This document shows, piece by piece, positions 44,282 through 60,400 of a stretch of DNA of 64,000 nt. The position numbers and the translations under genes are program-made. Location of the stretch: positions 9,209 to 73,208 of the forward strand of contig JBAYJD010000008.1 in NCBI GenBank assembly GCA_041665305.1, written 5' to 3'. The notes under the pieces are model-generated. The model was not told the DNA's origin, did not search any database, and was given only the letters and a program-made list of their open reading frames with translations. The stretch's first letter is position 1. Every line of letters starts with the position of its first letter. The DNA comes from Elusimicrobiales bacterium. Lineage in GTDB: Bacteria; Elusimicrobiota; Elusimicrobia; Elusimicrobiales; UBA9959.

Positions 44282-44300
44282 CTGCCATAAAAATTGCTCC
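44282..44300 (+). promoter_or_regulatory. variant -24/-12 element, copy 1 (upstream of the sigma-54-like gene)
   Basis: CTGCCATAAAAATTGCTCC, i.e. TGCCAT-N5-TTGCT with the same spacing as TGGCAC-N5-TTGCW. Lies 39 nt before the ATG at 44339. Confidence 0.6.
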
Positions 44301-44338
44301 ATTTTCGCATAACGGCTATAATATGCGAGGGTGAGGCT

Positions 44339-45397
44339 ATGAGCAAATTCCATAAATTCGGTTTCAACCATTCCGCAAGAACTAAAGCGGCGGCTATGGG
44401 CGCTATGAAGCTGGCGCAGATGTCCGAAATGTCGGAAGGCGAATTTGAAAGCTTTCTGAAGAAGATCGAAGATAACCGTTTTTTTAAATTGCTTAAAGCA
44501 TCCGGCGCCGTCAGCCTGGCGGAATTCCCGAATGCGCGTTATGCCGCAAAAAAATACGCCGGCTACGGGCTTAAACTGTCCTCCGGAGGTCTGCCGGAAC
44601 TAGCCGACGGCAAAGGCGATCTGGTCGGCCTGATACAGGGTATAGGCCAGGAAAAATTTGAAACCTGCTTCCTGAAAGACGCGGCCATGAGTGACGTAGA
44701 GCGGGCAGAGGAATGCGACATAACCGTCAAAGACGCCGCCCGCCTGCGTGATTTCGTCAACCGCGCGTTTATACAGGCTGAATTTGAAAGCGCGCCCGAA
44801 GCTCCTGTGTCGGAAGTGTTCAGTGTCGTGGCCGGCATAGAGCTTGAAAACGGCAAGCCTCTCCTGGCGTTCTTTCACCGGGAAATCTGGAAAGGCTGTT
44901 ATAAAGTGGACGGGGAAAAACTTTCAGAAGCGTTGAAAGGCCTCCCCGCCTCTGAACAAACCGCCGTGGAAAAGCTTGTAAGGCGTATGGAACTGGCGGA
45001 CAAGCGAAAATCCACGCTTTACCGCGCGCTGGAAATAGTTATGGAGCGGCAAACCGAGTACCTGATAACCGGAGAGCCTGTGCGCAGGGCGCCGTTGCCG
45101 CAGAAAGTTCTGGCAGCGGAACTTGAAGTCCATCCCAGCGTTCTTAACCGGCTTATCTCAAATAAATCCATACAGATGCCTTGGGGCACCGAAGCGCCTA
45201 TGTCGGTGCTGCTGCCCAGCTCTAAAGCCATAAATTTAGAGCGGCTATACGCCATAGCCGTTGAAAATCCTGGTATGAACGACACTGAGTTGCGCGCCGA
45301 GCTTAAAATCCGCCACGGCGTAGAATTATCCCGCCAGTCCATAGTGCAATACCGCAAAGATTTATCATTGTCCAGGAATACTTCCAGCACGCTGTAA
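44339..45397 (+). CDS. short divergent sigma-54 (RpoN)-like factor
   Basis: The C-terminal half aligns by eye with RpoN. Pre-HTH region KRKSTLYRALEIVMERQTEYL. HTH LPQKVLAAELEVHPSVLNRLISNKSIQMPWG (compare MHESTISRVT..KY..TP.G). RpoN-box-like SRQSIVQYRKDL (compare ARRTVAKYR). N-terminus MKLAQMSEMSEGEFESFLKKIEDN resembles region I. About 352 aa against the usual ~450-500. Confidence 0.65.
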   Translation: MSKFHKFGFNHSARTKAAAMGAMKLAQMSEMSEGEFESFLKKIEDNRFFKLLKASGAVSLAEFPNARYAAKKYAGYGLKLSSGGLPELADGKGDLVGLIQGIGQEKFETCFLKDAAMSDVERAEECDITVKDAARLRDFVNRAFIQAEFESAPEAPVSEVFSVVAGIELENGKPLLAFFHREIWKGCYKVDGEKLSEALKGLPASEQTAVEKLVRRMELADKRKSTLYRALEIVMERQTEYLITGEPVRRAPLPQKVLAAELEVHPSVLNRLISNKSIQMPWGTEAPMSVLLPSSKAINLERLYAIAVENPGMNDTELRAELKIRHGVELSRQSIVQYRKDLSLSRNTSSTL

Positions 45398-45412
45398 AAC
45401 CCACTGTTGGGT

Positions 45413-45445
45413 TTCAAAATGAAAGCATTTATCTCAAAATGAGAT
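45413..45445. promoter_or_regulatory. enhancer-like repeat pair upstream of the lanthipeptide operon
   Basis: TCAAAATGA at 45414 and 45434 (20-bp phasing), ~100 bp upstream of the -24/-12 element at 45532. Confidence 0.5.
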
Positions 45446-45531
45446 GATGTTTGCTTCTTTTCTACTCCCCTGCCTCCGCAGATTTCCTGATTTCCCCAAT
45501 AGAAACGCATAAAATCGTCCAGTACATCCAT

Positions 45532-45550
45532 CTGCCATGAAAATTGCTCC
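45532..45550 (+). promoter_or_regulatory. variant -24/-12 element, copy 2
   Basis: CTGCCATGAAAATTGCTCC. Lies 46 nt before the lanA1 ATG. Confidence 0.6.
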
Positions 45551-45595
45551 ATAGAAGGTGTAGGCGGTCAAAACAAGCTAAGGAGAACGAACCAA

Positions 45596-45688
45596 ATGAC
45601 TAAAGTACTTGAACTGCAGAAACTGGAAACCGGATCAGAGGGCGAGACCCGCTTGGGCAGTTGGATCAGCAACAGCTGCGGGCAATAG
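45596..45688 (+). CDS. class III lanthipeptide precursor (30 aa), absent from the ORF track
   Basis: MTKVLELQKLETGSEGETRLGSWISNSCGQ. RBS aaggag. Leader VLELQ motif. Core S-x-x-S-x-x-C. Confidence 0.8.
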   Translation: MTKVLELQKLETGSEGETRLGSWISNSCGQ

Positions 45689-45724
45689 TGAGTGTGCCGA
45701 TATTAAACAATAGGAGAAAATAAA

Positions 45725-45826
45725 ATGAACACGATACTTGAGTTGCAGAAACTGGAAGTAAAGTCGGAAAACGAGACTCGCGGGGGAAGCTGGATCAGCA
45801 ACTGCTGCGGCGGGCAGAACGAATGA
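45725..45826 (+). CDS. class III lanthipeptide precursor (33 aa), absent from the ORF track
   Basis: MNTILELQKLEVKSENETRGGSWISNCCGGQNE. RBS aggag. Leader ILELQ motif. Core SWISNCC. Confidence 0.8.
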   Translation: MNTILELQKLEVKSENETRGGSWISNCCGGQNE

Positions 45827-45838
45827 GCGGTAGGATAA

Positions 45839-45872
45839 CTCCGGAGGTGGGGAGATTCGGCCACCTCCGGAG
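45839..45872 (+). terminator. strong hairpin between precursor genes and lanKC (attenuator or mRNA stabiliser)
   Basis: Perfect 12-bp stem ctccggaggtgg / ccacctccggag with a 10-nt loop. No clear U-tract. Confidence 0.5.
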
Positions 45873-45889: not shown

Positions 45890-48556
45890 GTGGGTAATGA
45901 TATGAATAGCGCAAACAACTTGAATTACTACCTGTTCGCAGACAAACGGTTCTATGAGCCCATGGATTATTGCGTGGTAAATGAGGGCGATTATTTTGAT
46001 TTCGTCCGAAGCCAGGCTGATGCGGAATGGAAGTTTGTCAGAAGCGGTATCTGGATAAACTGTATATACCTTAAACATACGATGCCTCTTCAGGGCTGGA
46101 AAATACATTTGTCGGCGACTCATTCGGATTCTGAAGGCATTTTCAGCGCGGCGGCAGAGTTTCTTATGGCGAACAAGGTGACTTTTAAGTTCCTGTTAGA
46201 CAAAAAAACATTGGCGATAACCAATTCAAAAGGCTGGTCTCGCGGCGCTTCCGGGAAATTTATGACGGTGTATCCGACGGATCCGGAGCACTGCAAGTGG
46301 CTGCTGGAAAAACTGCATTCACTGACGGCGGATTTTTGCGGCCCGTATATCCTCTCTGATATGCGTTATAAAGACAGCAAAGTCCTGTACTACAGATATG
46401 GCGGATTCAGGCCGAATTTACGGCTTGATGTGAATGGGAAACGTATCCCGGTGCTGGTTTCCCCTGATGGAAAAGAGGAGGCCGATGTGCGGCCGCCGTA
46501 TTACCGTCTCCCCGGATGGGTGGATGAGATATTCCCGAAGAAGAATACAAATGAGTCTGGTGGCGGATTGAATAACGGGAGATATGCAGTTGAGAGATCT
46601 CTGCATTTCTCCAATACAGGCGGGATATATATCGCCTATGACAATATCGGGAAAAAAAGAGTTGTGCTGAAAGAGGCGCGTGCGCATGTCAACGCGTTCG
46701 CGGAAAATGTGGACGCCGCCAGAATGCTTAAGAGGGAGTATGATATCCTGAAAAAAGTCGGGAACTGCGGCATCGCGCCGGAGCCGGTTGAATTATTCAG
46801 GGAATGGGAGCACCTTTTCCTGGCGGAAGAATATCTGGAGGGTTATATCACGCTTCACGCTTTCGCCGCGCAGAACAGTATTCTGCTGGAGGCGCGCCCT
46901 ACCGAAGAGAAGGTTAAATCCTACCTGGAAAAATATATCGCAATTTTCAGAAAACTCGCGGGAATTATTGAGGCCCTTCATTCCCGGAATATCATATTCG
47001 GGGATTTTTCGGTCAATAATGTCCTGGTCAATCCCGCCACGCTGGATATAAAAATTATCGACCTGGAAGGGGCGCTTGTGGAGGGCGAGGAGGAAGCTTA
47101 TAAACTTTTTACACGCGGGTTTGCCGCCGTCGAGCAGGTCAAGGGGGCGGCGCCTACGCGGGAAAGCGATTATTACGCATTCGGCGCGATAATGCTGTAT
47201 ATGCTGACGCATATAAACGGGATTCTGGATTTAAAGCCTGATGCCGGAACTGAAGCATTGCAGATGGTGGGCCGGGATTTTGGCATACCTGTAAAGTTGA
47301 GAAGGATTATAAATACCCTCATGCACTCCGATCCCGCGAAGCGGCGGGGCCCGGGTGTTTTGCGCGATCAGAAGCAGGAAACTGCTTTAAGGAAGACATG
47401 CGCGGTCAGATTGTCCGCAGCTGCTCCCCGGTTGTCCAGGAAGTACATTACTGATACCGTGCGGTCGGCATGCAGCTTTATTGAATCGAGCGCGGACTAC
47501 GCCAGGAAAGACAGGCTCTTTCCCGCAGACCCGGAAATTTTTGAAACGAATCCGCTCAGTCTTGCGCATGGGGCCGTAGGGGTTCTTTATACATTATCAA
47601 AACTCGGACGCAAGCCTGCTCCCGAAATGCTGCAATGGGTGCGCCAGCATGAAATTTCCGGCAAAAATTGTCCGCCCGGCTTATATCCGGGAATGTCCGG
47701 CATAGCCTGGGGACTGCTTGAGCTTGGCGATAAGGCTGGCGCCGAGGCTGTGTTCGGTAAAACATTCAATTCCCCGCTTTTAGCTGTTTCTTCATCGCTG
47801 TATACCGGCCTGGCCGGTTGGGGGATGACCAATCTTAAGTTCTGGCTGGCCACCCGCAAGGAAATTTACCTGGACAATGCCAAAAAGGCGGGGGAAACAT
47901 TGCTTGATTCCGCGCGCAACGATTCTCACGGTGCGCACTGGCCTGATCAGGCCGGCAAAGTGCCTATCGGGCTGGCGCACGGAGCGGGAGGAATAGGTCT
48001 TTTCCTGCTGTATCTTTACGCGGCCACCGGCAATCAAAAATACCGGCAAAAAGCCGTGGAGGCATTGGATCACGACATCGCTTATGCCGATGCGTTCGGA
48101 AACGGTAATATGGCCTGGGCGAAGACAGCCGGAGAGAACGGGGCGCTTTACCCTTACTGGGAATACGGCAGCGCCGGTATCGGAATTGCCTGCCTGCGCT
48201 ATTTCAGCGTGTTAAAGGAACCTAAGTACATGAAACTTGTGGAAAAGATATATGAAAGCTGCGCGACAAAATATGCGATTTTCCCAGGAAGAAATATGGG
48301 CATGGCAGGTCTGGGCGAGTTTCTGCTTGACGCTTATGCCGTGACAAAAGACGTAAAATACCTCAATAGCGCGCACAGTGTCGCAAGCGGATTCAAACGT
48401 TTTGCGATACGAAGCCCAAAAGGCGTCGCGTTCCCCGGCGACGGTCTGGCACGGATAAGTTGTGATTACGCCGCCGGGATGAGCGGGATCATACTGTTCC
48501 TCGACCGGCTGGTGTCAGGCCGGCCTGCGGATTTTATGCTTGATGAATTGCTTTAA
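45890..48556 (+). CDS. class III lanthipeptide synthetase (LanKC: lyase-kinase-cyclase)
   Basis: Central kinase-like VVLKEARAH, FGDFSVNNVLVN, IIDLEGA. C-terminal LanC-like GxxG repeats (SLAHGAVG, GMSGIAWG, GLAGWG, GLAHGAGG). The Zn-ligand positions read WEYGSAG and GRNMGMAG rather than WCxG and CHG, as expected for class III. Start is GTG 45890 or ATG 45902. Confidence 0.85.
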   Translation: MGNDMNSANNLNYYLFADKRFYEPMDYCVVNEGDYFDFVRSQADAEWKFVRSGIWINCIYLKHTMPLQGWKIHLSATHSDSEGIFSAAAEFLMANKVTFKFLLDKKTLAITNSKGWSRGASGKFMTVYPTDPEHCKWLLEKLHSLTADFCGPYILSDMRYKDSKVLYYRYGGFRPNLRLDVNGKRIPVLVSPDGKEEADVRPPYYRLPGWVDEIFPKKNTNESGGGLNNGRYAVERSLHFSNTGGIYIAYDNIGKKRVVLKEARAHVNAFAENVDAARMLKREYDILKKVGNCGIAPEPVELFREWEHLFLAEEYLEGYITLHAFAAQNSILLEARPTEEKVKSYLEKYIAIFRKLAGIIEALHSRNIIFGDFSVNNVLVNPATLDIKIIDLEGALVEGEEEAYKLFTRGFAAVEQVKGAAPTRESDYYAFGAIMLYMLTHINGILDLKPDAGTEALQMVGRDFGIPVKLRRIINTLMHSDPAKRRGPGVLRDQKQETALRKTCAVRLSAAAPRLSRKYITDTVRSACSFIESSADYARKDRLFPADPEIFETNPLSLAHGAVGVLYTLSKLGRKPAPEMLQWVRQHEISGKNCPPGLYPGMSGIAWGLLELGDKAGAEAVFGKTFNSPLLAVSSSLYTGLAGWGMTNLKFWLATRKEIYLDNAKKAGETLLDSARNDSHGAHWPDQAGKVPIGLAHGAGGIGLFLLYLYAATGNQKYRQKAVEALDHDIAYADAFGNGNMAWAKTAGENGALYPYWEYGSAGIGIACLRYFSVLKEPKYMKLVEKIYESCATKYAIFPGRNMGMAGLGEFLLDAYAVTKDVKYLNSAHSVASGFKRFAIRSPKGVAFPGDGLARISCDYAAGMSGIILFLDRLVSGRPADFMLDELL

Positions 48557-48566
48557 GGAGAATCCA

Positions 48567-50117
48567 ATGTTTAAGAATATGCGGCTTATTGTTCGGCCTT
48601 ATACAACCTCGTTTACCCTCGCATTGGCGGGCGTGGTCGCTATGGATGCGGTCATGAGCCTGCTCAATCCGCTTTTATTGAAATACATATTTGATGAGGG
48701 AGTGATAAAAAAGGATTTCAGGCTGTTTATTGTGGTTACTGTCGGGTTTATGATCCTTGCGACCTTATTCCGGTTGTTCTCTTTATGGAACAACCTTTAC
48801 GTGCAGGATCTGAAAAACAGAATACTTAAACGGCTTATAGGAAGCATGCTGGAAAGCTACTATAAAATGCCGTATATACAGGTCATGAAGAATAAAACCG
48901 GCTATTATACCTCAAGGATTTATGACGAGCCGCTGAGCGCCTCATCCACGGCGATAGATCTCGCTTTCGCGGTATGCCCGGCCGCTGTTTCGTTTCTTGT
49001 GGCGTTTGGGGTTGTTGTTTTCTTGTCGATCAAAGCCACGTTTGCGCTGGTGCTTACGGTGCCGTTCCTTATAATGCTCGCAAATAAATACCATTCCGAG
49101 ATCAAGCAGCATTCCCGCGACGAAAAAGAGGGGGAGGGCGAGTTGCGCGGCGTTATAACCGGTTCTGCGGAATCATATCGTACCGTCAACCTGTTCGGCC
49201 TGCATTCCGCGGTGCTGTCAAAAATTAACGAGAAGTTCGAAAAGTACACGACAAGTCTTAATGCCCGTGTCAGAAACAGCGCAAAACATAACACTTATGG
49301 CGCTATTTTCATGTCCTACGGCGAAATGCTGGTTATAATCGTCTGCGGATACGCGATTTTGAAAGGGGAGATGAGTTTCGGGGGATTCATGGCTTTTATG
49401 AACGCATTCTGGCTTGCCGTCGGCAATATGAGAACGCTTGTGCAGAAAATACCTGAATTCTCACGGAACTCAATGGCGTTGCATCGGTTGGCGGAGTTCG
49501 GCATGCCAGCTTCAGAAGCGGCTGGTACCGGCGGTGGAACCGGGATCGGCGCAATTACACTTGAAAACGTGGGGTTCAGCTATGGTGATAAGCAAGTATT
49601 TTCAAACCTGAGTTTCAGCGCGGGCAAAGGCGAAAAATTGCTGCTAAGCGGCAAGAACGGCTCCGGAAAATCCACGGTGGCGAATATGCTCTCCGGATTC
49701 CTCGCGCCGGATAATGGGACCGCGCGGATTCTGGGCGTTGAAAAGACCAGCGCCTGCGTCTCCCCGCATCACTTCGCGCCTGGCACATTACGCGACAACC
49801 TGAAATTCGATAGCCATACGGACGAACAGCGCCGATACCTGAATGGCGTGCTGGCGGACTTCAAGCTGACGGAAAGTCTTGATAAGAGCCCTGATGCGCT
49901 GTCCGCCGGGCAGAAGAAAAAGGCCGAGATCGCTATGGGGTTGATGAAAGACGCTGAATTGTTTCTGTTCGACGAACCTCTCGCCAACGTGGACGTGGAG
50001 AGCAAGCCGATAATAATGGAGCATATCTTTAACCGGACCAAAGATAAAATCCTGGTAGTTGTAATGCATGGGGATGATGAATTCCGTGGGCAGTTTACCA
50101 GGATGGTGAGTTTATGA
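48567..50117 (+). CDS. ABC transporter, fused permease/ATPase (peptide exporter)
   Basis: Six N-terminal TM helices. Walker A GKNGSGKST, signature LSAGQKKK, Walker B LFLFDEP. RBS aaggag. Confidence 0.85.
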   Translation: MFKNMRLIVRPYTTSFTLALAGVVAMDAVMSLLNPLLLKYIFDEGVIKKDFRLFIVVTVGFMILATLFRLFSLWNNLYVQDLKNRILKRLIGSMLESYYKMPYIQVMKNKTGYYTSRIYDEPLSASSTAIDLAFAVCPAAVSFLVAFGVVVFLSIKATFALVLTVPFLIMLANKYHSEIKQHSRDEKEGEGELRGVITGSAESYRTVNLFGLHSAVLSKINEKFEKYTTSLNARVRNSAKHNTYGAIFMSYGEMLVIIVCGYAILKGEMSFGGFMAFMNAFWLAVGNMRTLVQKIPEFSRNSMALHRLAEFGMPASEAAGTGGGTGIGAITLENVGFSYGDKQVFSNLSFSAGKGEKLLLSGKNGSGKSTVANMLSGFLAPDNGTARILGVEKTSACVSPHHFAPGTLRDNLKFDSHTDEQRRYLNGVLADFKLTESLDKSPDALSAGQKKKAEIAMGLMKDAELFLFDEPLANVDVESKPIIMEHIFNRTKDKILVVVMHGDDEFRGQFTRMVSL

Positions 50118-50280: not shown

Positions 50281-50299
50281 CTGCCATAAAAATTGCTCC
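50281..50299 (+). promoter_or_regulatory. variant -24/-12 element, copy 3
   Basis: CTGCCATAAAAATTGCTCC. Lies 43 nt before the ATG at 50342. Confidence 0.6.
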
Positions 50300-50341
50300 G
50301 TAGTGGGTGTAAGTGCAGAAAACCACTAAAGGAGAACTTAA

Positions 50342-50509
50342 ATGAACGCAATGCAGATGAACCTTAACAATACGGACGAAAATAACTTCACTTCCGGGTT
50401 CAACCGTGCGCCTGAGTTGGAGGATGTGTTTATGTCTGGTTTCAACCGCGCGCCAGAGCTGGAAGAGAGTTTTACTTCCGGTTTCAATCGCGCTCCCGAA
50501 CTGGCCTAA
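50342..50509 (+). CDS. repeat-containing RiPP precursor (55 aa), absent from the ORF track
   Basis: MNAMQMNLNNTDENNF-TSGFNRAPELEDVF-MSGFNRAPELEESF-TSGFNRAPELA. RBS aaaggag. Three 14-codon units with SGFNRAPEL invariant while 8 of its 9 codons differ synonymously between units. Confidence 0.8.
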   Translation: MNAMQMNLNNTDENNFTSGFNRAPELEDVFMSGFNRAPELEESFTSGFNRAPELA

Positions 50510-50566: not shown

Positions 50567-51703
50567 ATGACAAAACCATTTTTCTCTTATTCCACTCCAC
50601 GAATAAACAGCCTTGTATTCAAGCTGGTGGACTATTGCAATCAAGGTTGCACTTATTGCTACCGTGAAAACGACAAAGAGCGTCCAGTGCGCATAATGTC
50701 AGATGAACTGATAGAAACTACTATCGTGAAATATATAGATTTTCTTAAGTCCAAAGGAAACGCCCGCAGCGTAGTATATCTGATCTGGCATGGCGGGGAG
50801 CCATTGCTGGCAGGAATCAGTAAGTTCAGGACGATAATGGAAATACAGGCGCAGCTTGCGGCCAGGTATGAGGTCGGTTTTGTGAATTCCGTGCAAACCA
50901 ATGGGGTCTATATTGATGAGGAATGGGCAAAGTTCTTCAACGAAAACAGGTTCCTGGTCGGGGTGAGCCTGGACGGCCCTAAGCAGATTCATGATATCTA
51001 CAGAAAAAACAAAGGCGGAGTTTCCACCTTCGCGGAGACGATGCGCGGGATCAAATTGCTGCAAGCGCACAAAATAAAAACTAATCTTATCGGTGTTGTA
51101 ACCAATGAGAGCGCTCCGCACGCCGATATGATGTATGAGTTTTTCAGGGATTTTGGCGTGCAGGACATAGACCTCATCCCTTGTTTTGATTATAACGATC
51201 CGCTTACCTTGTCGCCGGAGCTGTACCGCGCTTTTATGGTTACGATTTTTAAGCGGTGGCGTTCGGACGGATTTGCGCCGCTGAGAATAAGGTTCCTTTC
51301 CGATGTTTTGAAAAAGATCTCGGTGCTGCGTTCCGGCGGTTGCGCTACTATAGGCTGCGAGCTTATGGGCGGCTGCGGGCAGAACTGGTCCATAGGCGTG
51401 GAAGGGGAAGTATATCCGTGCGAGTGCCTCACCCCGATAAAGCGCATGGAGCTGGGAAATATTATGGAATCTTCTTTTGAAGGGCTCATGTCCTGCGGCG
51501 CTTTCACTAACGTGAAATCGGAGAACAATGATATCGCGCAAGATTGCCGCGACTGCGACGTGCTGGCGGTATGCCGGGCAGGCTGCCTCAACAGGCGTCT
51601 TAAGGATTATAAACTTGACGGGAAAAGGGACCCTTACTGCCTTGCCCGCCGTGACGTGATCAAACTTGCCCTGGAGGATGCGTATGCAATCCCGGCTAAA
51701 TAA
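50567..51703 (+). CDS. radical SAM/SPASM-domain peptide maturase
   Basis: CNQGCTYC (CxxxCxxC), WHGGEPLL. C-terminal Cys clusters GGCATIGCELMGGCGQ...YPCEC and CRDCDVLAVCRAGC typical of SPASM auxiliary clusters. Confidence 0.85.
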   Translation: MTKPFFSYSTPRINSLVFKLVDYCNQGCTYCYRENDKERPVRIMSDELIETTIVKYIDFLKSKGNARSVVYLIWHGGEPLLAGISKFRTIMEIQAQLAARYEVGFVNSVQTNGVYIDEEWAKFFNENRFLVGVSLDGPKQIHDIYRKNKGGVSTFAETMRGIKLLQAHKIKTNLIGVVTNESAPHADMMYEFFRDFGVQDIDLIPCFDYNDPLTLSPELYRAFMVTIFKRWRSDGFAPLRIRFLSDVLKKISVLRSGGCATIGCELMGGCGQNWSIGVEGEVYPCECLTPIKRMELGNIMESSFEGLMSCGAFTNVKSENNDIAQDCRDCDVLAVCRAGCLNRRLKDYKLDGKRDPYCLARRDVIKLALEDAYAIPAK

Positions 51704-52877
51704 AAACGCCTGGTTATTGTTGTCAGCCGTAGCCATTTCATCCGTAGGGGATTGGCTCAATATCCTTGCCCTGATTACTGTGTTTAGCAAGGCGTATGGG
51801 GCGGCAAGCGTGGCATTCCTGATGGCGATGCGGGCTGTTCCCGGCGTCCTGCTGGGGCCGTGGGTTGCCAATCACATAGATCGCTTTCAGAAAACACGCG
51901 TACTCATTTTTTTAAGCGTCGCTCAGGCAGCCCTGGCGTTAACATTGGGCGTTCTCTCTGACCGTTGGGCGCTTCTCGGCGCGGCGGCGGCGCTTTCCAC
52001 GCTTAATTTGTTCTCCGCCCCTTTGATCAAGGCTCTCCTCCCCACGGTATGCAACTCCGCATCGCTTAGCCGCGTGAATTCGTATTTCGCATCTATACAG
52101 TCAAGTTCCTATGTTCTGATACCGCTTCTTAGCGGGGTGCTGATATCAATCTTTGGCCCGGCGGCATGTTTTAATATAGATGCGGCGACATTTGTCGTCT
52201 TTGGCGTAATGATCGCAGCTGTGCATGTTTCTGATGCGGGGCGTGTCGGCGTTCAGGGGGGGGCGGTAGAGTCCGGGAGTCTCTTCAGGGATCTGCTAAA
52301 TACGCCTGATCTAAAGCGGACATTGTTTGCTTTTGCAGTGGCGGGATTTTCACTGGGGACGATCTACTCGGTGGAGATTTCTTTTTTCGCCAAATACCTG
52401 AATGTAGATCCTCGCGGTTACGGAAGCTTTGTGGCGATCGCCGGCGCGGGTGTGTTGATGGGATCCCTGCTCTGCGGGCGGTTTACGGCTTCGGCAACGC
52501 TTGAGCGGGTGTTTGTAGCGGGGCTTGCCTTATTCGGGACAATGACGGTGCTCTTTTCTTTTAACCGCAGTTTGGTTGTGGCGATCGGGTTGATTATGCT
52601 GTCAGGATTCGGAGAGGGCCTGTTTTCCGTTTCAGGCACCATCCTCGTCCAATTACAATCGCGCGCGGACCGGTTGGCCGGAAATTTTACACTGCTTGGC
52701 GTTTTGTCCAAGAGCTTCAGTCTTTTTGCGATGCTTGTAGCCGCAATGTTTATGGATTACATGCAGCCGGCAGGATTGTTGCTTGTGGCGGGGCTGGTTG
52801 CATTGGGTGTAGCTGCGGTATGGGGCGTAACAAAAGCTCAGGTCAGCAATGTTGCTGCGCCAAAATGCGCCGAATGA
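51684..52877 (+). CDS. MFS transporter (putative peptide exporter)
   Basis: 12 predicted TM helices. N-terminus LLLSAVAISSVGDWLNILAL typical of the MFS_3/EntS-like group. Overlaps the rSAM 3' end. RBS ggagg. Confidence 0.75.
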   Translation: MQSRLNKNAWLLLSAVAISSVGDWLNILALITVFSKAYGAASVAFLMAMRAVPGVLLGPWVANHIDRFQKTRVLIFLSVAQAALALTLGVLSDRWALLGAAAALSTLNLFSAPLIKALLPTVCNSASLSRVNSYFASIQSSSYVLIPLLSGVLISIFGPAACFNIDAATFVVFGVMIAAVHVSDAGRVGVQGGAVESGSLFRDLLNTPDLKRTLFAFAVAGFSLGTIYSVEISFFAKYLNVDPRGYGSFVAIAGAGVLMGSLLCGRFTASATLERVFVAGLALFGTMTVLFSFNRSLVVAIGLIMLSGFGEGLFSVSGTILVQLQSRADRLAGNFTLLGVLSKSFSLFAMLVAAMFMDYMQPAGLLLVAGLVALGVAAVWGVTKAQVSNVAAPKCAE

Positions 52878-53069: not shown

Positions 53070-53088
53070 CTGCCATAAAAATTGCTCC
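53070..53088 (+). promoter_or_regulatory. variant -24/-12 element, copy 4
   Basis: CTGCCATAAAAATTGCTCC. Lies 40 nt before the ATG at 53128. Confidence 0.6.
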
Positions 53089-53127
53089 GTAGGAGGCGTA
53101 AGCAGACATAATATACGGAGGATACAA

Positions 53128-53304
53128 ATGAAACGGATAACGATCAAAATAGCAATAGCGGGGATATCGGCTTTGTTTATAATGGCAGTTTTACTGAAGC
53201 CGCAGCACTTGACTGGCGGCGAGGCCAGCAAAAAGCAGACCGTAGTTCACTATACCAGCGTTGGAGTGTTTCCCAATTCGCCGCTGTTCTATGCGGAGAA
53301 CTAA
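53128..53304 (+). CDS. small peptide (58 aa) with hydrophobic N-terminus, candidate precursor or secreted peptide
   Basis: MKRITIKIAIAGISALFIMAVLLKPQHLTGGEASKKQTVVHYTSVGVFPNSPLFYAEN. RBS acggagg. The longer track ORF from 53056 would begin inside the promoter element. Confidence 0.6.
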   Translation: MKRITIKIAIAGISALFIMAVLLKPQHLTGGEASKKQTVVHYTSVGVFPNSPLFYAEN

Positions 53305-53442
53305 GCAAAGACCCACGGTGGATATAGGTCCAAAGGCCCTTACAAACTTATGAGTCACAGACTACACTATTGTATGATTCTTGACAGCTCGGGGGATTGG
53401 CCTCGGAATATCTGCGACCGGACCTTGATCATGTGTATCCAG

Positions 53443-53487
53443 GGAAAGCAGAATCGAATTTGCTTTTCCTCTTTTAATTGAAAAGCA
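53443..53487 (+). promoter_or_regulatory. two mutually exclusive hairpins (terminator/antiterminator-like)
   Basis: Hairpin 1 is ggaaagca / tgcttttcc (53443-53469), followed by tctttt. Hairpin 2 is tgctttt / aaaagca (53461-53487). Both use the same tgctttt segment. Confidence 0.4.
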
Positions 53488-53529
53488 GTTTCTGAAATGG
53501 CAGAATACAGCAGATAAGGAGAATGCGAT

Positions 53530-53730
53530 ATGACGAACAAAGATAAAGTGATTGTATCGTTCCTGGTGTCCATCGGGATATTTTCTTCCGCCCAAGCGGT
53601 TCGCTATGTTAAGACTCTTGAAATTAGTGAGAAGAACTCCATGATATCCGTGGCCAAACTATCTAATTCCGGCATAGTTCTTTGTGAAGATTCTACCAGT
53701 CGTTCCGGTTTAGATAATCATAAAGGATAA
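53530..53730 (+). CDS. small protein (66 aa) with signal-peptide-like N-terminus, translationally coupled to the radical SAM gene
   Basis: MTNKDKVIVSFLVSIGIFSSAQA... RBS aaggag. Its TAA overlaps the ATG of the next gene (TAATG). Confidence 0.55.
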   Translation: MTNKDKVIVSFLVSIGIFSSAQAVRYVKTLEISEKNSMISVAKLSNSGIVLCEDSTSRSGLDNHKG

Positions 53731-54629
53731 TGGATGGGCACGCTTTGGGGCAGACCGTCGATATTCGTAAGCTAGGAATAGTTGTCGGTACCGCATGCAA
53801 TTTTAATTGCAGCCATTGCTTGATCAAGAAGGAAGACAGGCGTGAACGACTGTCTCTGAAAGAGGTTCGGCTATTGTGCGATACGGTGGCCAGATATCGT
53901 CCGAAGTCGATTTTGTTCACCGGAGGGGAACCGACCTTTTGGATCAAGGAAATAAACGAAATTATTTCCTCCCACCCTTGCCCTGAAAACCTTAAAATCA
54001 CTTTGACCACTAATGGCCATTTCGCAGGGTCGGTCTCTTTGGCGAAGAAGGTGCTCTCCTCGTTTACCAGACTTGATTATGTGCAATTGTCGTATGATGT
54101 TTTCCATAAAATCTTCCTGTCGTTTTCAAAAGCTAAAAATCTTCATTCAGCGTGTACGGAGTTGCGGGTCGGTTTCAGCGCGATTCTAACGATGTCGTCT
54201 CCGTTGGACCTGCTTCTCGTTAAACAGTTGCGAAGTTTCGGGCGGTTCAAGATAGGGGTGCAAAAGGTCGCTAGTATTGGAGAGGCGAAGAGAAACGGCA
54301 TTCGGTTCATCTTCCCATGCTTTGACGAGAAAGTACTCTCTAAATATTGTCCCAACAGGAACAGTCTCGGGTATATTTGCGGACGCGGATTCTCGATCTG
54401 TTGTGCGGAACTGGCCTTTAATAATTCTATGCCCGGGGTGTTTCACTCAACGCTGGGTGAACATTTGGCCAGTCCTTTATACGGATTGATGCGGAAACAC
54501 AATTTTGCGGAACTGATGAAAATATTGCGGGTACCTAAAAAGTCCCTGCTGCCGGATCATTCCTCGGAGTGTGTGCTGTGCGACCATATTTTTAAAAATG
54601 CCAGGAGGAAAGTGCGGTTGACGCCGTAA
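53730..54629 (+). CDS. radical SAM protein with C-terminal Cys-rich (twitch/SPASM-like) region
   Basis: CNFNCSHC (CxxxCxxC), FTGGEPTF. C-terminal CPNRNSLGYICGRGFSICC and CVLC. Confidence 0.8.
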   Translation: MDGHALGQTVDIRKLGIVVGTACNFNCSHCLIKKEDRRERLSLKEVRLLCDTVARYRPKSILFTGGEPTFWIKEINEIISSHPCPENLKITLTTNGHFAGSVSLAKKVLSSFTRLDYVQLSYDVFHKIFLSFSKAKNLHSACTELRVGFSAILTMSSPLDLLLVKQLRSFGRFKIGVQKVASIGEAKRNGIRFIFPCFDEKVLSKYCPNRNSLGYICGRGFSICCAELAFNNSMPGVFHSTLGEHLASPLYGLMRKHNFAELMKILRVPKKSLLPDHSSECVLCDHIFKNARRKVRLTP

Positions 54630-54636
54630 ATCGTGT

Positions 54637-55332
54637 ATGAAATCAAACCCCCGTCTTGTTCAGAAGGAAAAAGGAAAAATAACCTATCAAATGCCGGATT
54701 TTACCCGGCTTAATACTTCGGCGATAGATAAGCTTGCCTGGCCGAAGGAAATCCCGGTCTTGTGGCTGAAATACTACGAAAACCTCGACGGCTGCTACGA
54801 GGCGTTGGATAAAAGGATATCCCGCAAATATATCGTGCGGGTAATATACTCCGCCGATAAGAAAGATATTCATTTGAAGGGGAGAAAGGAATCTGCCTGC
54901 GCGATAAAAGCCAGGGAATCGCTTACAACGGCGGAATTATTGGCACTATATCTTGAAACACATGCTAAATCCTTTATCGCGCCGTGGGCCGGACAACTTG
55001 ATAGTAAATATATAGACGAGGTTTCCTCGTTCATTAAAGAAGATCTGCCGATCTCAAAGTCGTTGAGCTTCTTTAAGGATAAATCCCCAGTGGGATTGGT
55101 GCTCCTGACGGAGTTAGGCAGCGGAGCTGGGCTTATTTCATGGATATGGTTCGCGCCGTCTTTAAGCATTGCTGAAAGACGGAAAGCGCACAATCTCTTT
55201 GCCGCCTGGCTGAGGAACGGGAAATATCCGCAAATTAAAAGTGTCGTTCATTCTTTCAACCTGCGCTCTAACAGATTCTTTATAAAAATGGGATTCCATA
55301 CTCAATGCATTGCTATCACCAGACGAAGCTGA
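54637..55332 (+). CDS. GNAT-family acetyltransferase-like protein (tentative)
   Basis: C-terminal pattern GLVLLTEL...ISWIWFAP...RRKAHNLFAAWL...NLRSNRFFIKMGF resembles GNAT motifs A/B. The N-terminal half is unassigned. Confidence 0.5.
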   Translation: MKSNPRLVQKEKGKITYQMPDFTRLNTSAIDKLAWPKEIPVLWLKYYENLDGCYEALDKRISRKYIVRVIYSADKKDIHLKGRKESACAIKARESLTTAELLALYLETHAKSFIAPWAGQLDSKYIDEVSSFIKEDLPISKSLSFFKDKSPVGLVLLTELGSGAGLISWIWFAPSLSIAERRKAHNLFAAWLRNGKYPQIKSVVHSFNLRSNRFFIKMGFHTQCIAITRRS

Positions 55333-59038: not shown

Positions 59039-60400
59039 TTATTTTCTTCCATCCGGTTCATCGCCCTTGTTCGGTCCAAATTTCTTTAACCTGGCATAAA
59101 GCAGGTTGGTGGAGATCTTAAGATTGGCCATTACCTTGCTTTTGTTGCCGTTGTTCTCCTGCATATTGCGGCGGATTATCTCGTAGGTGAACAGTTCGGA
59201 CGCGGCGTCCAGGCCGTTTTTTACGGCGTATTTATACTGCGCGTTCGTAAGGAACCCGCCTGGCGGCAGGGGGTTAAGTTCCTGCGAAAGGTGCTTACGG
59301 ATAGTTTCAAGCGTGACGCGGTTTCCCGTGCCTGAAACAAGCAGGTCCACCAGCTTCTTCAATTCCCGGATATTGCCCGGCCATTCGTATTGGAGCATGA
59401 AAGTTCTGGCGTCCGGCGCAAATGATAATTGCCGTGCCCCGCTCGTGAATTGCCGTATGAGGGGGAAAATATCGCAGGAGCGTTCGCACAACGGCTTAAG
59501 GTTGACGGTCAGGCCGTGTATGCGCTGAAAGAAGTCCAGCCGCAGTTTCCCTTGCGTTATAAGCGCCTTAAGGTCTTCTAGCGTGGCGCTGATTATCCTG
59601 AAATCGGAACGCTCCGGTTTGTCGGAGCCCAGCGGGTAAAACGATTTCTCCTCAATGGCTTTAAGCAGCTTGGTCTGCATATTAAGGCTCATAGAACCTA
59701 TTTCATCCAAAAACAATGTGCCGTTGTTGGCCTGCAAGAGTCGGCCCTTTCTGTTTTCATTTGCCCCGGTGAATGCGCCTTTCCTGTAGCCGAACAATTC
59801 GGCTTCCATCAATTCCTCGGTATAGGCCGAGCAATTCATGGCGACGAATTCGCCGGAACGTCCGGAATATTTGTGAATTATCCGGGCCAGGCAGGTTTTT
59901 CCTGTGCCGGTTGGCCCAAGGATAAGGATAGGGGAGCCGGAGGCCGCGTATTTAAGCGCTTCGGTGACATTGGCGCGCGTTGCCGGGTCTTCGGTTATAA
60001 ATTCCTCGGAGAAGACTTTATTGAGGTTCCCGCTTTTGCCGCGCTGCAGGTATTTGGCGATAACCGCGCTGATATTGGCTTTCTCGTTGCCTTTGATATA
60101 GAAATCGTCGCAGCCGAGTTCATAGGCCTTATTTATGATATCGTCGGAATCCGAGCTTGTCATGACCACGGAGTAAAACCCTTTTGATCTGGCGTCCGCG
60201 ATAAGTTTTAAACCCGAATAATCATCATCAAGCCCCAGCATCAGGTCCAGGAAGCATAGGTCATAAGAACCGCCGGCCAGTTTTTTCCTGGCGGTCTTTG
60301 TATCTTTTGCGAAGTCCACGGCATGGCCTGTCAACTGGGCCGCCATGACCGCCTGCGCCGGATTTTCGTCTTCAACCACCAGAATCTTCAGTTTGTCCAT
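59039..60400 (-). CDS. sigma-54-dependent response regulator (NtrC-type enhancer-binding protein)
   Basis: Receiver ILVVEDE...CFLDLML. AAA+ Walker A GPTGTGKT, intact GAFTGA loop, Walker B LFLDEIG, EWPGNIREL. C-terminal Fis-type HTH KSKVMANLKISTNLLYARLKKFG. Confidence 0.9.
   Translation of the reverse strand: MDKLKILVVEDENPAQAVMAAQLTGHAVDFAKDTKTARKKLAGGSYDLCFLDLMLGLDDDYSGLKLIADARSKGFYSVVMTSSDSDDIINKAYELGCDDFYIKGNEKANISAVIAKYLQRGKSGNLNKVFSEEFITEDPATRANVTEALKYAASGSPILILGPTGTGKTCLARIIHKYSGRSGEFVAMNCSAYTEELMEAELFGYRKGAFTGANENRKGRLLQANNGTLFLDEIGSMSLNMQTKLLKAIEEKSFYPLGSDKPERSDFRIISATLEDLKALITQGKLRLDFFQRIHGLTVNLKPLCERSCDIFPLIRQFTSGARQLSFAPDARTFMLQYEWPGNIRELKKLVDLLVSGTGNRVTLETIRKHLSQELNPLPPGGFLTNAQYKYAVKNGLDAASELFTYEIIRRNMQENNGNKSKVMANLKISTNLLYARLKKFGPNKGDEPDGRK

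What the first reader, a model, noticed from the sequence alone, without database searches (positions are those of the whole stretch)
45596..45826. Two unannotated class III lanthipeptide precursors with very short single-ring cores
Both small ORFs have strong RBSs and begin M(T/N)(K/T)(V/I)LELQKLE. This matches the (I/L/V)-L-(D/E)-L-Q leader motif required by class III LanKC enzymes, as in labyrinthopeptin-type leaders. The cores are only ~10-13 residues (LGSWISNSCGQ and GGSWISNCCGGQNE). They contain S-x-x-S-x-x-C, one residue shorter than the canonical labionin/lanthionine S-x-x-S-x-x-x-C spacing as I recall it. The second core has a CC pair. Leader and SWISN are conserved between the two genes while flanking codons differ, which is consistent with selection on the peptide.
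Basis: partly seen in the sequence, partly recalled or inferred. Interest (0 to 1): 0.7.

Follow-up and report, generated by a model that had tools for sequence, protein, structure and literature searches.

The report
Two small class III lanthipeptide precursor genes
Two tiny genes in front of a LanKC enzyme in an uncultured Elusimicrobiales genome really do encode class III lanthipeptide precursors, but this is an ordinary, already annotated kind of peptide gene cluster; its unusual feature is the variant sigma-54-type promoter that appears to drive it.

Summary
ORFs 45596-45688 (30 aa) and 45725-45826 (33 aa) exist as described, each with a good RBS. They are the only two ORFs in 64 kb that combine a leader motif with an S-x-x-S-x-x-C core (0.005 expected by chance).

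Both score above the curated cut-off of NCBIfam NF038154, 'class III lanthipeptide'. The next gene is a LanKC (747 bits, cut-off 575) without zinc ligands, followed by an ABC exporter. The paralogues differ mainly at synonymous sites (pS 0.65, pN 0.18). The closest relative locus carries the same SNSC/SNCC pair.

- GenBank already annotates both peptides as 'class III lanthipeptide' (MFA6433636.1, MFA6433637.1).
- S-x2-S-x2-C is a recognised labionin motif, shown by NMR in andalusicin, not a shortened one.

So this is a new member of a known kind: a minimal, single-ring, Trp-containing class III peptide from Elusimicrobiota.

More surprising is the regulation. The operon sits behind a -24/-12 promoter reading TGCCAT-N5-TTGCT. 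That motif occurs four times in the window, before three peptide operons and before a compact sigma-54-like gene whose RpoN box carries R-to-Q. Relatives with the usual RR box or no sigma gene on the contig have GG promoters.

The parts
45412..45444 (+). Two adjacent palindromes, TTTCAAAATGAAA (45412-45424) and TCTCAAAATGAGA (45432-45444): candidate enhancer-binding-protein sites about 100-120 bp upstream of the promoter
   Evidence: Pattern TYTCAWNWTGARA gives 4 hits in the window against 0.08 expected. The other two (50126, 52950) lie 115-150 bp upstream of two more copies of the promoter. Similar TTTTCATnTGAAAAT repeats precede the promoter in relative L175. Function is inferred.
45532..45553 (+). 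Sigma-54-type -24/-12 promoter variant CTGCCATGAAAATTGCTCCATA (TGCCAT-N5-TTGCT), 43 nt before the lanA1 start codon
   Evidence: The 22-mer occurs 4 times in the window, all on the + strand, with 0 expected. Relatives carry the canonical TGGCAT-N5-TTGC at the same place before their precursors. No sigma-70-like promoter lies between 45397 and 45596.
45596..45688 (+). lanA1, 30-aa class III lanthipeptide precursor MTKVLELQKLETGSEGETRLGSWISNSCGQ: leader motif VLELQ at residues 4-8, ring motif S22-W-I-S25-N-S27-C28
   Evidence: NF038154 at 26.4 bits, cut-off 22. GenBank MFA6433636.1 'class III lanthipeptide'. Orthologue ...GSWLSNSCGQQN in L164.
45725..45826 (+). lanA2, 33-aa class III lanthipeptide precursor MNTILELQKLEVKSENETRGGSWISNCCGGQNE: leader motif ILELQ at residues 4-8, ring motif S22-W-I-S25-N-C27-C28
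   Evidence: NF038154 at 31.9 bits, cut-off 22, plus a weak RamS/SapB Pfam hit. GenBank MFA6433637.1. Relatives ...GSWLSNCCGGQN (L164)...GSWISNCCGVK and ...GSWISNCCGR.
45839..45872 (+). 12-bp G+C-rich hairpin between lanA2 and lanKC, with no U-tract: probable partial terminator or mRNA-stabilising stem that sets a high precursor-to-enzyme ratio
   Evidence: MFE -31 kcal/mol, z = -3.6, 0 of 200 shuffles fold as well. A strong hairpin of different sequence sits at the same position in L164 (-44), L084 (-32) and L175. The role is inferred.
45902..48556 (+). lanKC, class III lanthionine synthetase (lyase-kinase-cyclase), 884 aa; the mechanical ORF starts at GTG 45890
   Evidence: NF038151 at 747 bits (cut-off 575). 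LanL model at 555 bits, below its 650 cut-off. Pfam RamC_N, Pkinase and LANC_like. Best PDB sequence matches are LanKC structures 9wj0 (264 bits) and 8sao ThurKC (259 bits). The NisC Cys284/Cys330/His331 equivalents are Ser/Met/Ala.
48567..50117 (+). ABC exporter (transmembrane plus ATPase domains, no peptidase domain), 516 aa, directly after lanKC
   Evidence: Pfam ABC_membrane and ABC_tran. Gene call in L001. The same gene follows lanKC in L164, L084, L167, L168, L169 and L170.
44339..45397 (+). Compact sigma-54-family protein (352 aa) directly upstream, with its own copy of the TGCCAT promoter at 44282-44303; RpoN box LSRQSIVQYR instead of LSRRS(I/V)AQYR
   Evidence: Pfam Sigma54_DBD. AF2 model at pLDDT 72.9, whose top 26 PDB fold matches are all sigma-54/sigma-N chains. 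RpoN-box census: 111 RR against 5 RQ among 116 homologues.
59039..60400 (-). NtrC-type enhancer-binding response regulator (REC plus sigma-54 activation AAA+ domain): probable activator of the four promoters
   Evidence: Pfam Sigma54_activat at 192 bits plus Response_reg. Orthologues of 55-59% identity sit next to the lanthipeptide operon in L164, L084, L168, L169, L170 and L004.

Best explanation
These are two functional precursor genes (lanA1, lanA2) of a compact class III lanthipeptide operon, lanA1-lanA2-hairpin-lanKC-ABC exporter, in an uncultured Elusimicrobiales bacterium. Inferred mechanism, by analogy with LabKC, AncKC and ThurKC: the LanKC binds the N-terminal (V/I)LELQKL helix of each peptide. 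Its kinase domain phosphorylates Ser22 and Ser25 (and Ser27 in A1), and its lyase domain eliminates phosphate to give dehydroalanines. The zinc-free cyclase domain adds Cys28 to Dha25, and the resulting enolate most likely attacks Dha22 to give one labionin, or otherwise one lanthionine. This would leave Dha27 in A1 and a free or further reacted Cys27 in A2. The ABC transporter exports the product. The leader is removed somewhere after the conserved E-T-R (residues 17-19) by a protease that is not encoded in the operon, leaving peptides of about 9-14 residues. Transcription starts at an enhancer-dependent sigma-54-type promoter at 45533-45548. That promoter is probably served by the neighbouring compact sigma-54-like factor and the NtrC-type regulator at 59039-60400. 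The hairpin after lanA2 keeps precursor mRNA in excess over enzyme mRNA. Shown here: gene presence, family membership, purifying selection, conservation of the operon and of the A1/A2 pair, and the promoter motif with its repeats. Inferred: all the chemistry, the cleavage site, export and regulation.
For: Peptides: NF038154 at 26.4 and 31.9 bits, above the cut-off of 22. They are the only two such ORFs in the window, against 0.005 expected. pN/pS is about 0.28, p = 1.4e-4. The closest relative locus L164 (LanKC 74% identical) has the same pair...GSWLSNSCGQQN and ...GSWLSNCCGGQN. L084 (65%) has ...WSTLSTCCGQN...FSTLSASCSN and ...WSTISSNC..., all in the same S-x-x-S-x-(S/C)-C register. An exhaustive profile search of 1.84 billion representatives finds five more short peptides of this type, including ...SWISNCCGVK and ...SWISNCCGR. 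Enzyme: LanKC equivalog at 747 bits against 575; solved LanKCs are the best PDB matches; no zinc ligands. Literature: ILELQ is required by LabKC, and the rest of the leader acts as a spacer (PMC8341899). S(X)2S(X)2C is a labionin motif, with the labionin proven on Ser17/Ser20/Cys23 of andalusicin (PMC8169954). [quoted passage not shown] Operon: an ABC exporter follows lanKC in the relatives whose contigs reach that far. A hairpin is conserved in position in four loci. Promoter.
Against: There are no expression, mass-spectrometry or activity data for this or any closely related cluster. The organism is known only from metagenome bins. The presence of the motif does not decide labionin against lanthionine: CurKC makes lanthionines from Sx2Sx3C. 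The LanKC is only distantly related to the characterised ThurKC and TherKC (about 260 bits over 880 residues). It has Ala where ThurKC has the proposed cyclase base Asp771, so cyclase chemistry may differ. No M16B, M1 or prolyl-oligopeptidase leader protease was found among the window ORFs of 150 aa or more that were scanned with Pfam. The only peptidase seen is an S8 subtilase at 60730-61941, which is absent from the relatives' flanks. The -24 element has GC where sigma-54 promoters have an almost invariant GG.
Confidence: 0.85

Rival explanations
1. Same genes and enzyme, but the products carry lanthionine rather than labionin. In A2 the two cysteines could form two small overlapping lanthionine rings (for example Cys27 to Dha22 and Cys28 to Dha25) instead of one labionin plus a free thiol.
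For: Some LanKCs (CurKC, and partly EryKC and StaKC) give lanthionines despite a labionin motif (PMC8341899). AncKC can form either the large or the small lanthionine ring when one Ser is mutated (PMC8169954). A2 has exactly two Ser and two Cys in the ring region. The enzyme lacks the ThurKC Asp771 equivalent.
Against: The nearest characterised motif relative, andalusicin S-T-I-S-N-x-C, gives labionin as the major product. A1 has only one Cys, so the two-ring option cannot be the general solution for the pair.
Confidence: 0.3
2. A1 and A2 act together as a two-peptide system. The one position that separates the two types is Ser27 (which becomes electrophilic Dha) in A1 and Cys27 (a nucleophilic thiol) in A2. 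They could therefore be joined by an intermolecular thioether, or A2 could dimerise through a disulfide. That would mimic the two halves of labyrinthopeptin, which are linked by a Cys-Cys disulfide (the labyrinthopeptin structure is from my own knowledge).
For: The SNSC/SNCC pair is conserved between the window and L164 although the LanKCs are only 74% identical. L084 also has both ...SASC and ...STCC types. The andalusicin authors note that strongly differing precursors in one class III cluster may indicate two-component peptides.
Against: L175/L176 show only the CC-type gene in the roughly 170-220 bp of contig before it, directly behind the promoter and ahead of lanKC, so the SC partner may be dispensable. 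No intermolecular lanthionine is known to me. Multiple near-identical precursors are the norm in class III clusters.
Confidence: 0.1
3. Hybrid RiPP: the radical SAM/SPASM enzyme at 50567-51703 also acts on A1 and A2, for example forming a cyclophane on the Trp-Ile-Ser triad.
For: The rSAM/SPASM enzyme resembles cyclophane-forming maturases (GrrM/OscB, YhhB, AmcB and XyeB hits, all below their cut-offs). It lies 450 bp after the ABC gene and shares the same promoter motif. The core contains an aromatic-x-x triad.
Against: That enzyme has its own precursor directly upstream (50342-50509, with three SGFNRAPELE repeats) behind its own promoter copy. Neither the rSAM/SPASM nor the 299-aa rSAM has a tblastn match at E 1e-10 in the relatives' flanks. 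In L164 toxin-antitoxin genes follow the ABC gene.
Confidence: 0.04
4. The ORFs are chance or untranslated, or they belong to another lanthipeptide class (class IV, LanL).
For: They are very short and no expression data exist. The LanL model also scores 555 bits on the enzyme.
Against: Chance expectation is 0.005 per window. There is purifying selection, orthologues exist in several loci, and the curated HMM cut-offs are passed. The LanL score is below its 650 cut-off and all three zinc ligands are missing.
Confidence: 0.02

Closest known systems
Andalusicin system (AncA/ThurA precursors with AncKC/ThurKC, Bacillus thuringiensis; class III-a)
   Same: LxLQ leader. A single C-terminal S-x-x-S-N-x-C ring motif shown to become labionin. 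Several precursor genes per cluster. A zinc-free LanKC. No leader protease in the cluster (PMC8169954, PMC10604976).
   Different: Andalusicin has a 16-residue Thr-rich, heavily dehydrated N-terminal part and an N-terminal dimethylation enzyme. Here there is no Thr-rich stretch, no methyltransferase was seen among the genes examined, Trp replaces Thr in the ring, and 2-5 residues follow the last Cys. The LanKC is only a distant relative (259 bits) and lacks the Asp771 equivalent. The regulation and the phylum also differ.
Labyrinthopeptins (LabA1/A2 with LabKC, Actinomadura)
   Same: The I/V-L-E-L-Q motif is at residues 4-8. About the same distance separates the motif from the first modified Ser (13 residues here; 12 in the LabA2-like peptide of L081). 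There is a Trp inside the ring and a Cys-Cys pair at its end. Leader dependence is described in PMC8341899.
   Different: Labyrinthopeptins have two S-x-x-S-x-x-x-C-C units joined by a disulfide (own knowledge). Here there is one unit with the shorter x2 spacing.
Lipolanthines (microvionin)
   Same: A single labionin-type motif per peptide, the 'monomer labionin motif' (PMC8341899).
   Different: Lipolanthines need a decarboxylase (avionin) and a PKS or fatty-acid machinery. Nothing of that kind is in this cluster.
TherKC/TherA (class III-c, PDB 9wj0 presumed)
   Same: Best PDB sequence match to the enzyme (264 bits). Substrates carry an STxSNxC-like motif and a VLxLxxL leader (PMC13504147).
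   Different: The class III-c signature motifs quoted in that paper, such as GLIDGWSGVS, are not kept; here the sequence is GLAHGAGGIG. The subclass of the window enzyme is therefore unassigned. That 9wj0 is TherKC is my inference from its length, date and rank, not a tool result.
Engineered orthogonal sigma-54 R456H/Y/L with rewritten -24 elements (PMC12096077)
   Same: The second arginine of the RpoN box (E. coli R456) reads the -24 element. Changing it together with the -24 bases gives a working, orthogonal sigma/promoter pair. The window shows the natural counterpart of that design: RpoN box SRQS together with TGCCA.
   Different: Those pairs are laboratory constructs in a full-length E. 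coli-type sigma-54. Here the protein is a 352-aa Elusimicrobial sigma-54-like protein, the substitution is R to Q (with A to V or G three residues on), and nothing has been tested.

Membership tests
Class III lanthipeptide precursor (LanA of a LanKC system) | N-terminal leader with the hydrophobic (I/V/L)-L-(D/E/N)-L-Q recognition motif | tested here: met
   VLELQ and ILELQ at residues 4-8 of the two peptides. The motif requirement is described in PMC8341899.
Class III lanthipeptide precursor (LanA of a LanKC system) | Core with an S-x2-S-x2-5-C motif | tested here: met
   S22-W-I-S25-N-S/C27-C28, which is S-x2-S-x2-C. The motif range comes from PMC8341899 and PMC8169954.
Class III lanthipeptide precursor (LanA of a LanKC system) | Score above the curated cut-off of the NCBIfam class III lanthipeptide model | tested here: met
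   NF038154 at 26.4 and 31.9 bits against a cut-off of 22. NF038159 at 25.3 and 26.4 bits, below its cut-off of 30.
Class III lanthipeptide precursor (LanA of a LanKC system) | Encoded next to a LanKC: lyase, kinase and LanC-like cyclase in one protein, with the cyclase lacking the Cys/Cys/His zinc ligands | tested here: met
   RamC_N, Pkinase and LANC_like domains. NF038151 at 747 bits against 575. Ser, Met and Ala occupy the three ligand positions in the alignment to ThurKC.
Class III lanthipeptide precursor (LanA of a LanKC system) | Dehydration and thioether (lanthionine or labionin) formation by the LanKC | not testable with these tools
   Needs co-expression and MS/MS or NMR.
Andalusicin-like peptides (class III-a/III-c substrates) | Thr-rich (TITTT-like) N-terminal core followed by a single C-terminal STxSNxC motif | tested here: not met
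   The ring motif SWISNxC fits SxxSNxC. However, no Thr-rich stretch exists between the leader and the ring (GSEGETRLG and KSENETRGG). The feature is defined.
Andalusicin-like peptides (class III-a/III-c substrates) | LanKC of the AncKC/ThurKC or TherKC clade (within-subclass identity at least 47-74% according to PMC13504147) | tested here: inconclusive
   These are only distant matches: 259-264 bits over about 830 residues, and 64-87 bits for the cyclase domain. Percent identity to those chains could not be computed, and no tree was built.
Class IV lanthipeptide (LanL system) | LanL synthetase with zinc-binding cyclase domain | tested here: not met
   NF038150 at 555 bits, below its cut-off of 650. 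Zinc ligands are absent.
Sigma-54-dependent promoter | -24 GG and -12 GC elements, TGGCAC-N5-TTGCW | tested here: inconclusive
   14 of 16 consensus positions match and the spacing is exact, but the second G of the GG is C in all four window copies. Relatives have GG at the homologous site. An enhancer-binding protein and a sigma-54-like gene are both present.

The most novel reading that the evidence does not exclude
The lanthipeptide operon belongs to a small regulon of peptide operons, some of them RiPP clusters, read by a naturally re-specified sigma-54. The compact sigma-54-like protein encoded just upstream has Gln at the RpoN-box position equivalent to E. coli R456 (LSRQSIVQYR). Every promoter it would serve has TGCCAT instead of TGGCAT at -24: four in this window, two in L171 and two in L174. 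Homologues with the usual RR box sit beside GG promoters. If so, this is a natural orthogonal sigma-54/promoter pair, of the kind so far only built in the laboratory. It would dedicate enhancer-dependent transcription to peptide natural-product clusters.
Probability: 0.5. Interest if true: 0.7.

Novelty: new member of a known kind. Interest (0 to 1): 0.35.

Why it matters
For the peptides themselves the value is modest. No characterised class III lanthipeptide from Elusimicrobiota came up in my literature searches. The 2020 RefSeq survey found most LanKCs in Actinobacteria and Firmicutes and does not mention the phylum. These would also be among the smallest members of the class, essentially one ring plus a few residues. 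That makes them a convenient minimal substrate for studying how a zinc-free LanKC cyclase chooses labionin or lanthionine. The conserved Ser/Cys difference between the A1 and A2 types is a ready-made natural experiment. The regulatory context matters more. If the R-to-Q RpoN box really reads TGCC, it shows that sigma-54 promoter specificity has diversified in nature, contrary to the usual picture of an invariant GG. It would also supply a natural orthogonal, enhancer-gated expression part.

Tried and rejected
(1) Searching the 5.8-billion-protein collection with the peptides failed. That cost one of the three searches. The exhaustive profile search replaced it.

(2) Class IV (LanL) assignment was rejected on HMM cut-offs and the missing zinc ligands.

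(3) A hybrid lanthipeptide/radical-SAM product was considered because an rSAM/SPASM gene follows the exporter. It was rejected because that enzyme has its own repeat-containing precursor and promoter and is not conserved next to related lanKC genes.

(4) The S8 subtilase at 60730-61941 was considered as the leader protease. It has no copy of the promoter motif and no counterpart in the relatives' flanks, so it remains a weak candidate.

(5) No M16B, M1 or prolyl-oligopeptidase gene was found among the 47 ORFs scanned with Pfam, which included the large plus-strand ORFs of 0.8-37 kb. That region is mainly a polysaccharide-biosynthesis cluster.

(6) L173 was fetched to test the second RQ-box lineage (P0237). 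It is too short to contain a promoter.

(7) Both large collection scans returned mostly distant LanKC loci. Only L004, L005 and L084 belong to the close clade. The informative relatives came from exact-protein look-ups.

(8) No tRNA gene is in the window, so the tRNA-adjacent arrangement seen in L171 is not repeated here.
Full report
**What is there**

- 45596-45688 encodes MTKVLELQKLETGSEGETRLGSWISNSCGQ.
- 45725-45826 encodes MNTILELQKLEVKSENETRGGSWISNCCGGQNE.

Each follows a Shine-Dalgarno sequence, AAGGAG 10 nt before the first ATG and AGGAG 8 nt before the second. I scanned all six frames of the window for ATG-started ORFs of at most 70 aa with an [ILVM]L[DENQ]LQ motif near the N-terminus and [ST]xx[ST]x(1-4)C further on. 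The scan returns only these two. 200 Markov-simulated windows gave a mean of 0.005 such ORFs. The same DNA was assembled independently three times, in ENA, JGI and Logan data.

**Are they genes?**

Between the two paralogues there are 12 synonymous and 13 non-synonymous differences over 18.3 and 71.7 sites. That gives pS 0.65 and pN 0.18, Fisher p = 1.4e-4. Residues 5-11 of the leader, the E-T-R triplet and G-S-W-I-S-N are identical at protein level while their codons differ.

The closest related locus is L164 (GenBank assembly GCA_036170975.1), whose LanKC is 74% identical. It has two precursors in the same order, MTKILNLQKLEAKSEKQTRGSWLSNSCGQQN and MTKILNLQKLEAKVEKQTRGSWLSNCCGGQN. These are the same 'SC' and 'CC' types. 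L084 (LanKC 65% identical) has three...GWSTLSTCCGQN...GFSTLSASCSN and ...DWSTISSNCHNGGGCGN, all in the register S-x-x-S-x-(S/C)-C.

A profile of the two window peptides, run against 1.84 billion cluster representatives, found six proteins at E of 0.001 or better. Five are 29-33-aa peptides of this type, including ...GSWISNCCGVK...GSWISNCCGR and ...GWSTISNCCGTPN. Short ORFs are often not called in metagenomes, so this count is a lower bound.

**Family membership**

- Both peptides exceed the curated cut-off of NCBIfam NF038154, 'class III lanthipeptide' (26.4 and 31.9 bits, cut-off 22). They miss NF038159 (25.3 and 26.4 bits, cut-off 30). Only the second gives a weak Pfam RamS hit.
- The next gene (45902-48556, 884 aa) has RamC_N lyase, protein kinase and LanC-like domains. 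It scores 747 bits on the LanKC equivalog (cut-off 575) and 555 bits on LanL (cut-off 650).
- Its best matches among solved structures are LanKCs: 9wj0 at 264 bits, ThurKC 8sao at 259 bits, and several further LanKC-type chains at 171-192 bits, SalKC (9ugq) among them.
- I aligned the cyclase domain to ThurKC and used the published equivalences NisC C284/C330/H331 = ThurKC S726/F770/D771. The window enzyme has Ser, Met and Ala at these positions, so no zinc ligand remains.
- It keeps a GLAHG motif where ThurKC has GVIDG and 9wj0 has GLIDG. It lacks the Asp771 equivalent proposed as the cyclase base. I therefore leave its subclass (III-a to III-d of PMC13504147) unassigned.

An ABC exporter without a peptidase domain follows (48567-50117). 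It also follows lanKC in every relative whose contig reaches that far.

First, the genes are not unannotated in the public record. An exact-sequence look-up returns MFA6433636.1 and MFA6433637.1, both named 'MAG: class III lanthipeptide [Elusimicrobiales bacterium]'. The enzyme is named 'class III lanthionine synthetase LanKC'.

Second, S-x-x-S-x-x-C is not a shortened motif:
- The class III/IV review gives Sx2Sx2-5C as typical.
- The andalusicin paper lists S(X)2S(X)2C and S(X)2S(X)3C as the two labionin motifs. It assigns the labionin of andalusicin to Ser17, Ser20 and Cys23, with NMR support.

SWISN(S/C)C is the same motif with Trp in place of Thr.

One caveat concerns the andalusicin paper. 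It prints the C-terminal fragment as STISNCC but discusses only Cys23. By my own arithmetic the quoted 683 Da fits S-T-I-S-N-(N/L/I)-C better than a CC ending. I therefore rely only on S-T-I-S-N-x-C.

**What is somewhat unusual**

There is no Thr-rich or other long segment between the leader and the ring. The first modifiable Ser is residue 22, 13 residues after the LELQ glutamine. That spacing is about the same as in the labyrinthopeptin-like precursor picked up in L081, where it is 12 residues. Published work on LabKC shows that this spacer is needed for the core to reach the active sites.

If the leader is cut after the conserved E-T-R, the products are 11 and 14 residues long. Aminopeptidase trimming, which is common in this class, could shorten them to 9-12. 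Other members of the same Elusimicrobiota LanKC clade (L004, L005, L168-L170) have 37-40-aa precursors with two Cys-containing motifs. The single-ring form is therefore limited to a sub-clade.

**Mechanism**

Inferred by analogy with LabKC, AncKC and ThurKC:
1. The LanKC binds the leader.
2. Ser22, Ser25 (and Ser27 in A1) are phosphorylated, and phosphate is eliminated to give dehydroalanines.
3. Cys28 adds to Dha25.
4. The enolate is either captured by Dha22 to give labionin, or protonated to give lanthionine.

A1 would keep Dha27 and A2 would keep Cys27. The evidence does not decide between labionin and lanthionine, and I give the lanthionine variant 0.3.

The conserved A1/A2 difference at one position, an electrophile in one peptide and a nucleophile in the other, invites a two-peptide hypothesis. 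However, L175/L176 show only a CC-type gene in the short stretch of contig (about 170-220 bp) ahead of it, directly before lanKC. I rate the two-peptide idea at 0.1.

**Regulation**

No sigma-70-like promoter lies between the upstream gene and lanA1. Instead, 43 nt before the start codon lies CTGCCATGAAAATTGCTCCATA. This matches the sigma-54 consensus TGGCACG-N4-TTGCW in spacing and in 14 of 16 positions.

This 22-mer occurs four times in the window with at most two mismatches, always on the + strand and 36-43 nt before a start codon, against 0 expected. The four sites precede:
- the sigma-54-like gene (44282);
- lanA1 (45532);
- a 55-aa ORF with three SGFNRAPELE repeats, followed by an rSAM/SPASM maturase (50281);
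- a 58-aa ORF heading an operon that ends with a solute-binding-like protein and a histidine kinase (53070).

Palindromes TTTCAaaaTGAAA or TCTCAnnnTGAGA lie 100-150 bp upstream of three of the four sites, against 0.08 expected. An NtrC-type enhancer-binding response regulator is encoded at 59039-60400. Its orthologues (55-59% identity) sit next to the lanthipeptide operon in six relatives.

In relatives the homologous promoter is canonical at -24: TGGCATAGAAATTGCC in L164, TGGCATAAAAATTGCT in L084 and L175, and GGCAT variants in L005, L168, L169/L170 and L004.

**The sigma factor**

The 352-aa protein at 44339-45397 hits only the Sigma54_DBD Pfam model. Its AlphaFold model (pLDDT 72.9) nevertheless has sigma-54/sigma-N chains as its top 26 PDB matches. 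About 240 homologues of roughly 350 aa exist; every named one among the 120 listed is from Elusimicrobia.

Their RpoN box reads LSRRS(I/V)AQYR in 111 of 116 cases. In the window protein and in five homologues it reads LSRQS(I/V)(V/G)QYR. Four of those five are 86-91% identical to the window protein and one is 54% identical.

The second Arg corresponds to E. coli R456, which reads the -24 element. Engineered R456H/Y/L variants with rewritten -24 boxes are orthogonal to wild type (PMC12096077).

Two further contigs encode RQ-box proteins. L171 has two paralogues, each followed by a small ORF and radical SAM genes. L174 has one. Together they carry four more promoters, all TGCCAT. RR-box proteins in L004, L168 and L170 sit beside GG promoters.

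The covariation is therefore consistent. However, the RQ/TGCC loci are closely related, so this may be a single evolutionary event, and nothing has been tested. I give the specificity-switch reading 0.5.

**Verdict**

The finding is real and its central interpretation is correct, but the object is an ordinary class III lanthipeptide operon that standard models recognise and that GenBank already names. It is a new member of a known kind: a new phylum for the class, with a minimal Trp-containing single-ring core. The more surprising material is the shared variant -24/-12 promoter and the matching RpoN-box change in the adjacent sigma-54-like gene.

Noticed in passing
window 44282-44303, 45532-45553, 50281-50302, 53070-53091; sigma-54-like gene 44339-45397: Four copies of CTGCCAT(G/A)AAAATTGCTCC(A/G)T(A/T), a sigma-54-type promoter with GC instead of GG at -24. 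The adjacent compact sigma-54-like protein has R-to-Q at the RpoN-box position equivalent to E. coli R456. RQ-box homologues in L171 and L174 also sit with TGCCAT promoters, while RR-box homologues sit with GGCAT promoters. Possibly a natural orthogonal sigma-54/promoter pair.
   Followed up: partly
window 50342-50509 and 50567-52877: A 55-aa ORF, MNAMQMNLNNTDENNFTSGFNRAPELEDVFMSGFNRAPELEESFTSGFNRAPELA, carries three SGFNRAPELE repeats. It is followed by a radical SAM/SPASM enzyme resembling cyclophane-forming maturases (all hits below their cut-offs) and an MFS transporter. It looks like a separate multi-core triceptide-type RiPP cluster with an F-N-R motif, behind its own copy of the promoter.
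   Followed up: partly
window 53128-58864, 59039-60400 (-), 60730-61941: A third promoter copy heads an operon of a 58-aa ORF (signal or TM-like), a 66-aa ORF, a 299-aa radical SAM protein, a 231-aa unknown, an SBP_bac_5-like protein and a 719-aa histidine kinase. Then come a divergent NtrC-type activator and an S8 subtilase. L164 has a radical SAM, SBP, kinase and activator in the same order directly upstream of its lanthipeptide operon (the radical SAM and SBP proteins gave no tblastn match at E 1e-10, so only the kinase and activator are shown to be orthologous). This may be a peptide-sensing feedback circuit.
   Followed up: partly
L171 1-12832 (groundwater Elusimicrobia contig): There are two cassettes of sigma-54-like gene, TGCCAT promoter, small ORF (55 or 41 aa) and radical SAM enzymes. 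Each cassette is preceded by a near-identical tRNA-like fragment, which suggests duplicated or mobile RiPP cassettes. The intergenic region between the sigma gene and the small ORF is nearly identical to window 45398-45595.
   Followed up: no
loci L116, L124, L127, L129, L138, L142, L143, L145, L150, L157, L162 and others: Many soil-metagenome class III clusters carry 2-5 tandem precursors of 36-43 aa. These end in ...FFGNSCSSSxxxCCNGQ-type single-motif cores with a Cys-Cys pair, so short single-motif CC-ending class III cores are widespread outside Actinobacteria and Firmicutes. I found no characterised example.
   Followed up: no
window 47402-48553 (LanKC cyclase domain): The cyclase domain keeps a GLAHG motif (a His at what I take to be the NisC His212 position) where ThurKC has GVIDG and 9wj0 has GLIDG. 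It has Ala where ThurKC has the proposed base Asp771. An S-C-D triplet near the C-terminus is invariant in the 38-member clade.
   Followed up: partly
window 3900-33000; 26557-28069; 34593-37316: The first half of the window is a polysaccharide or O-antigen biosynthesis and export cluster (Wzy-like, Wzz/tyrosine-kinase-like, Poly_export, many glycosyltransferases and sugar epimerases). It is interrupted by an AbiEii-type toxin gene and followed by an SNF2/DUF3670 helicase.
   Followed up: no
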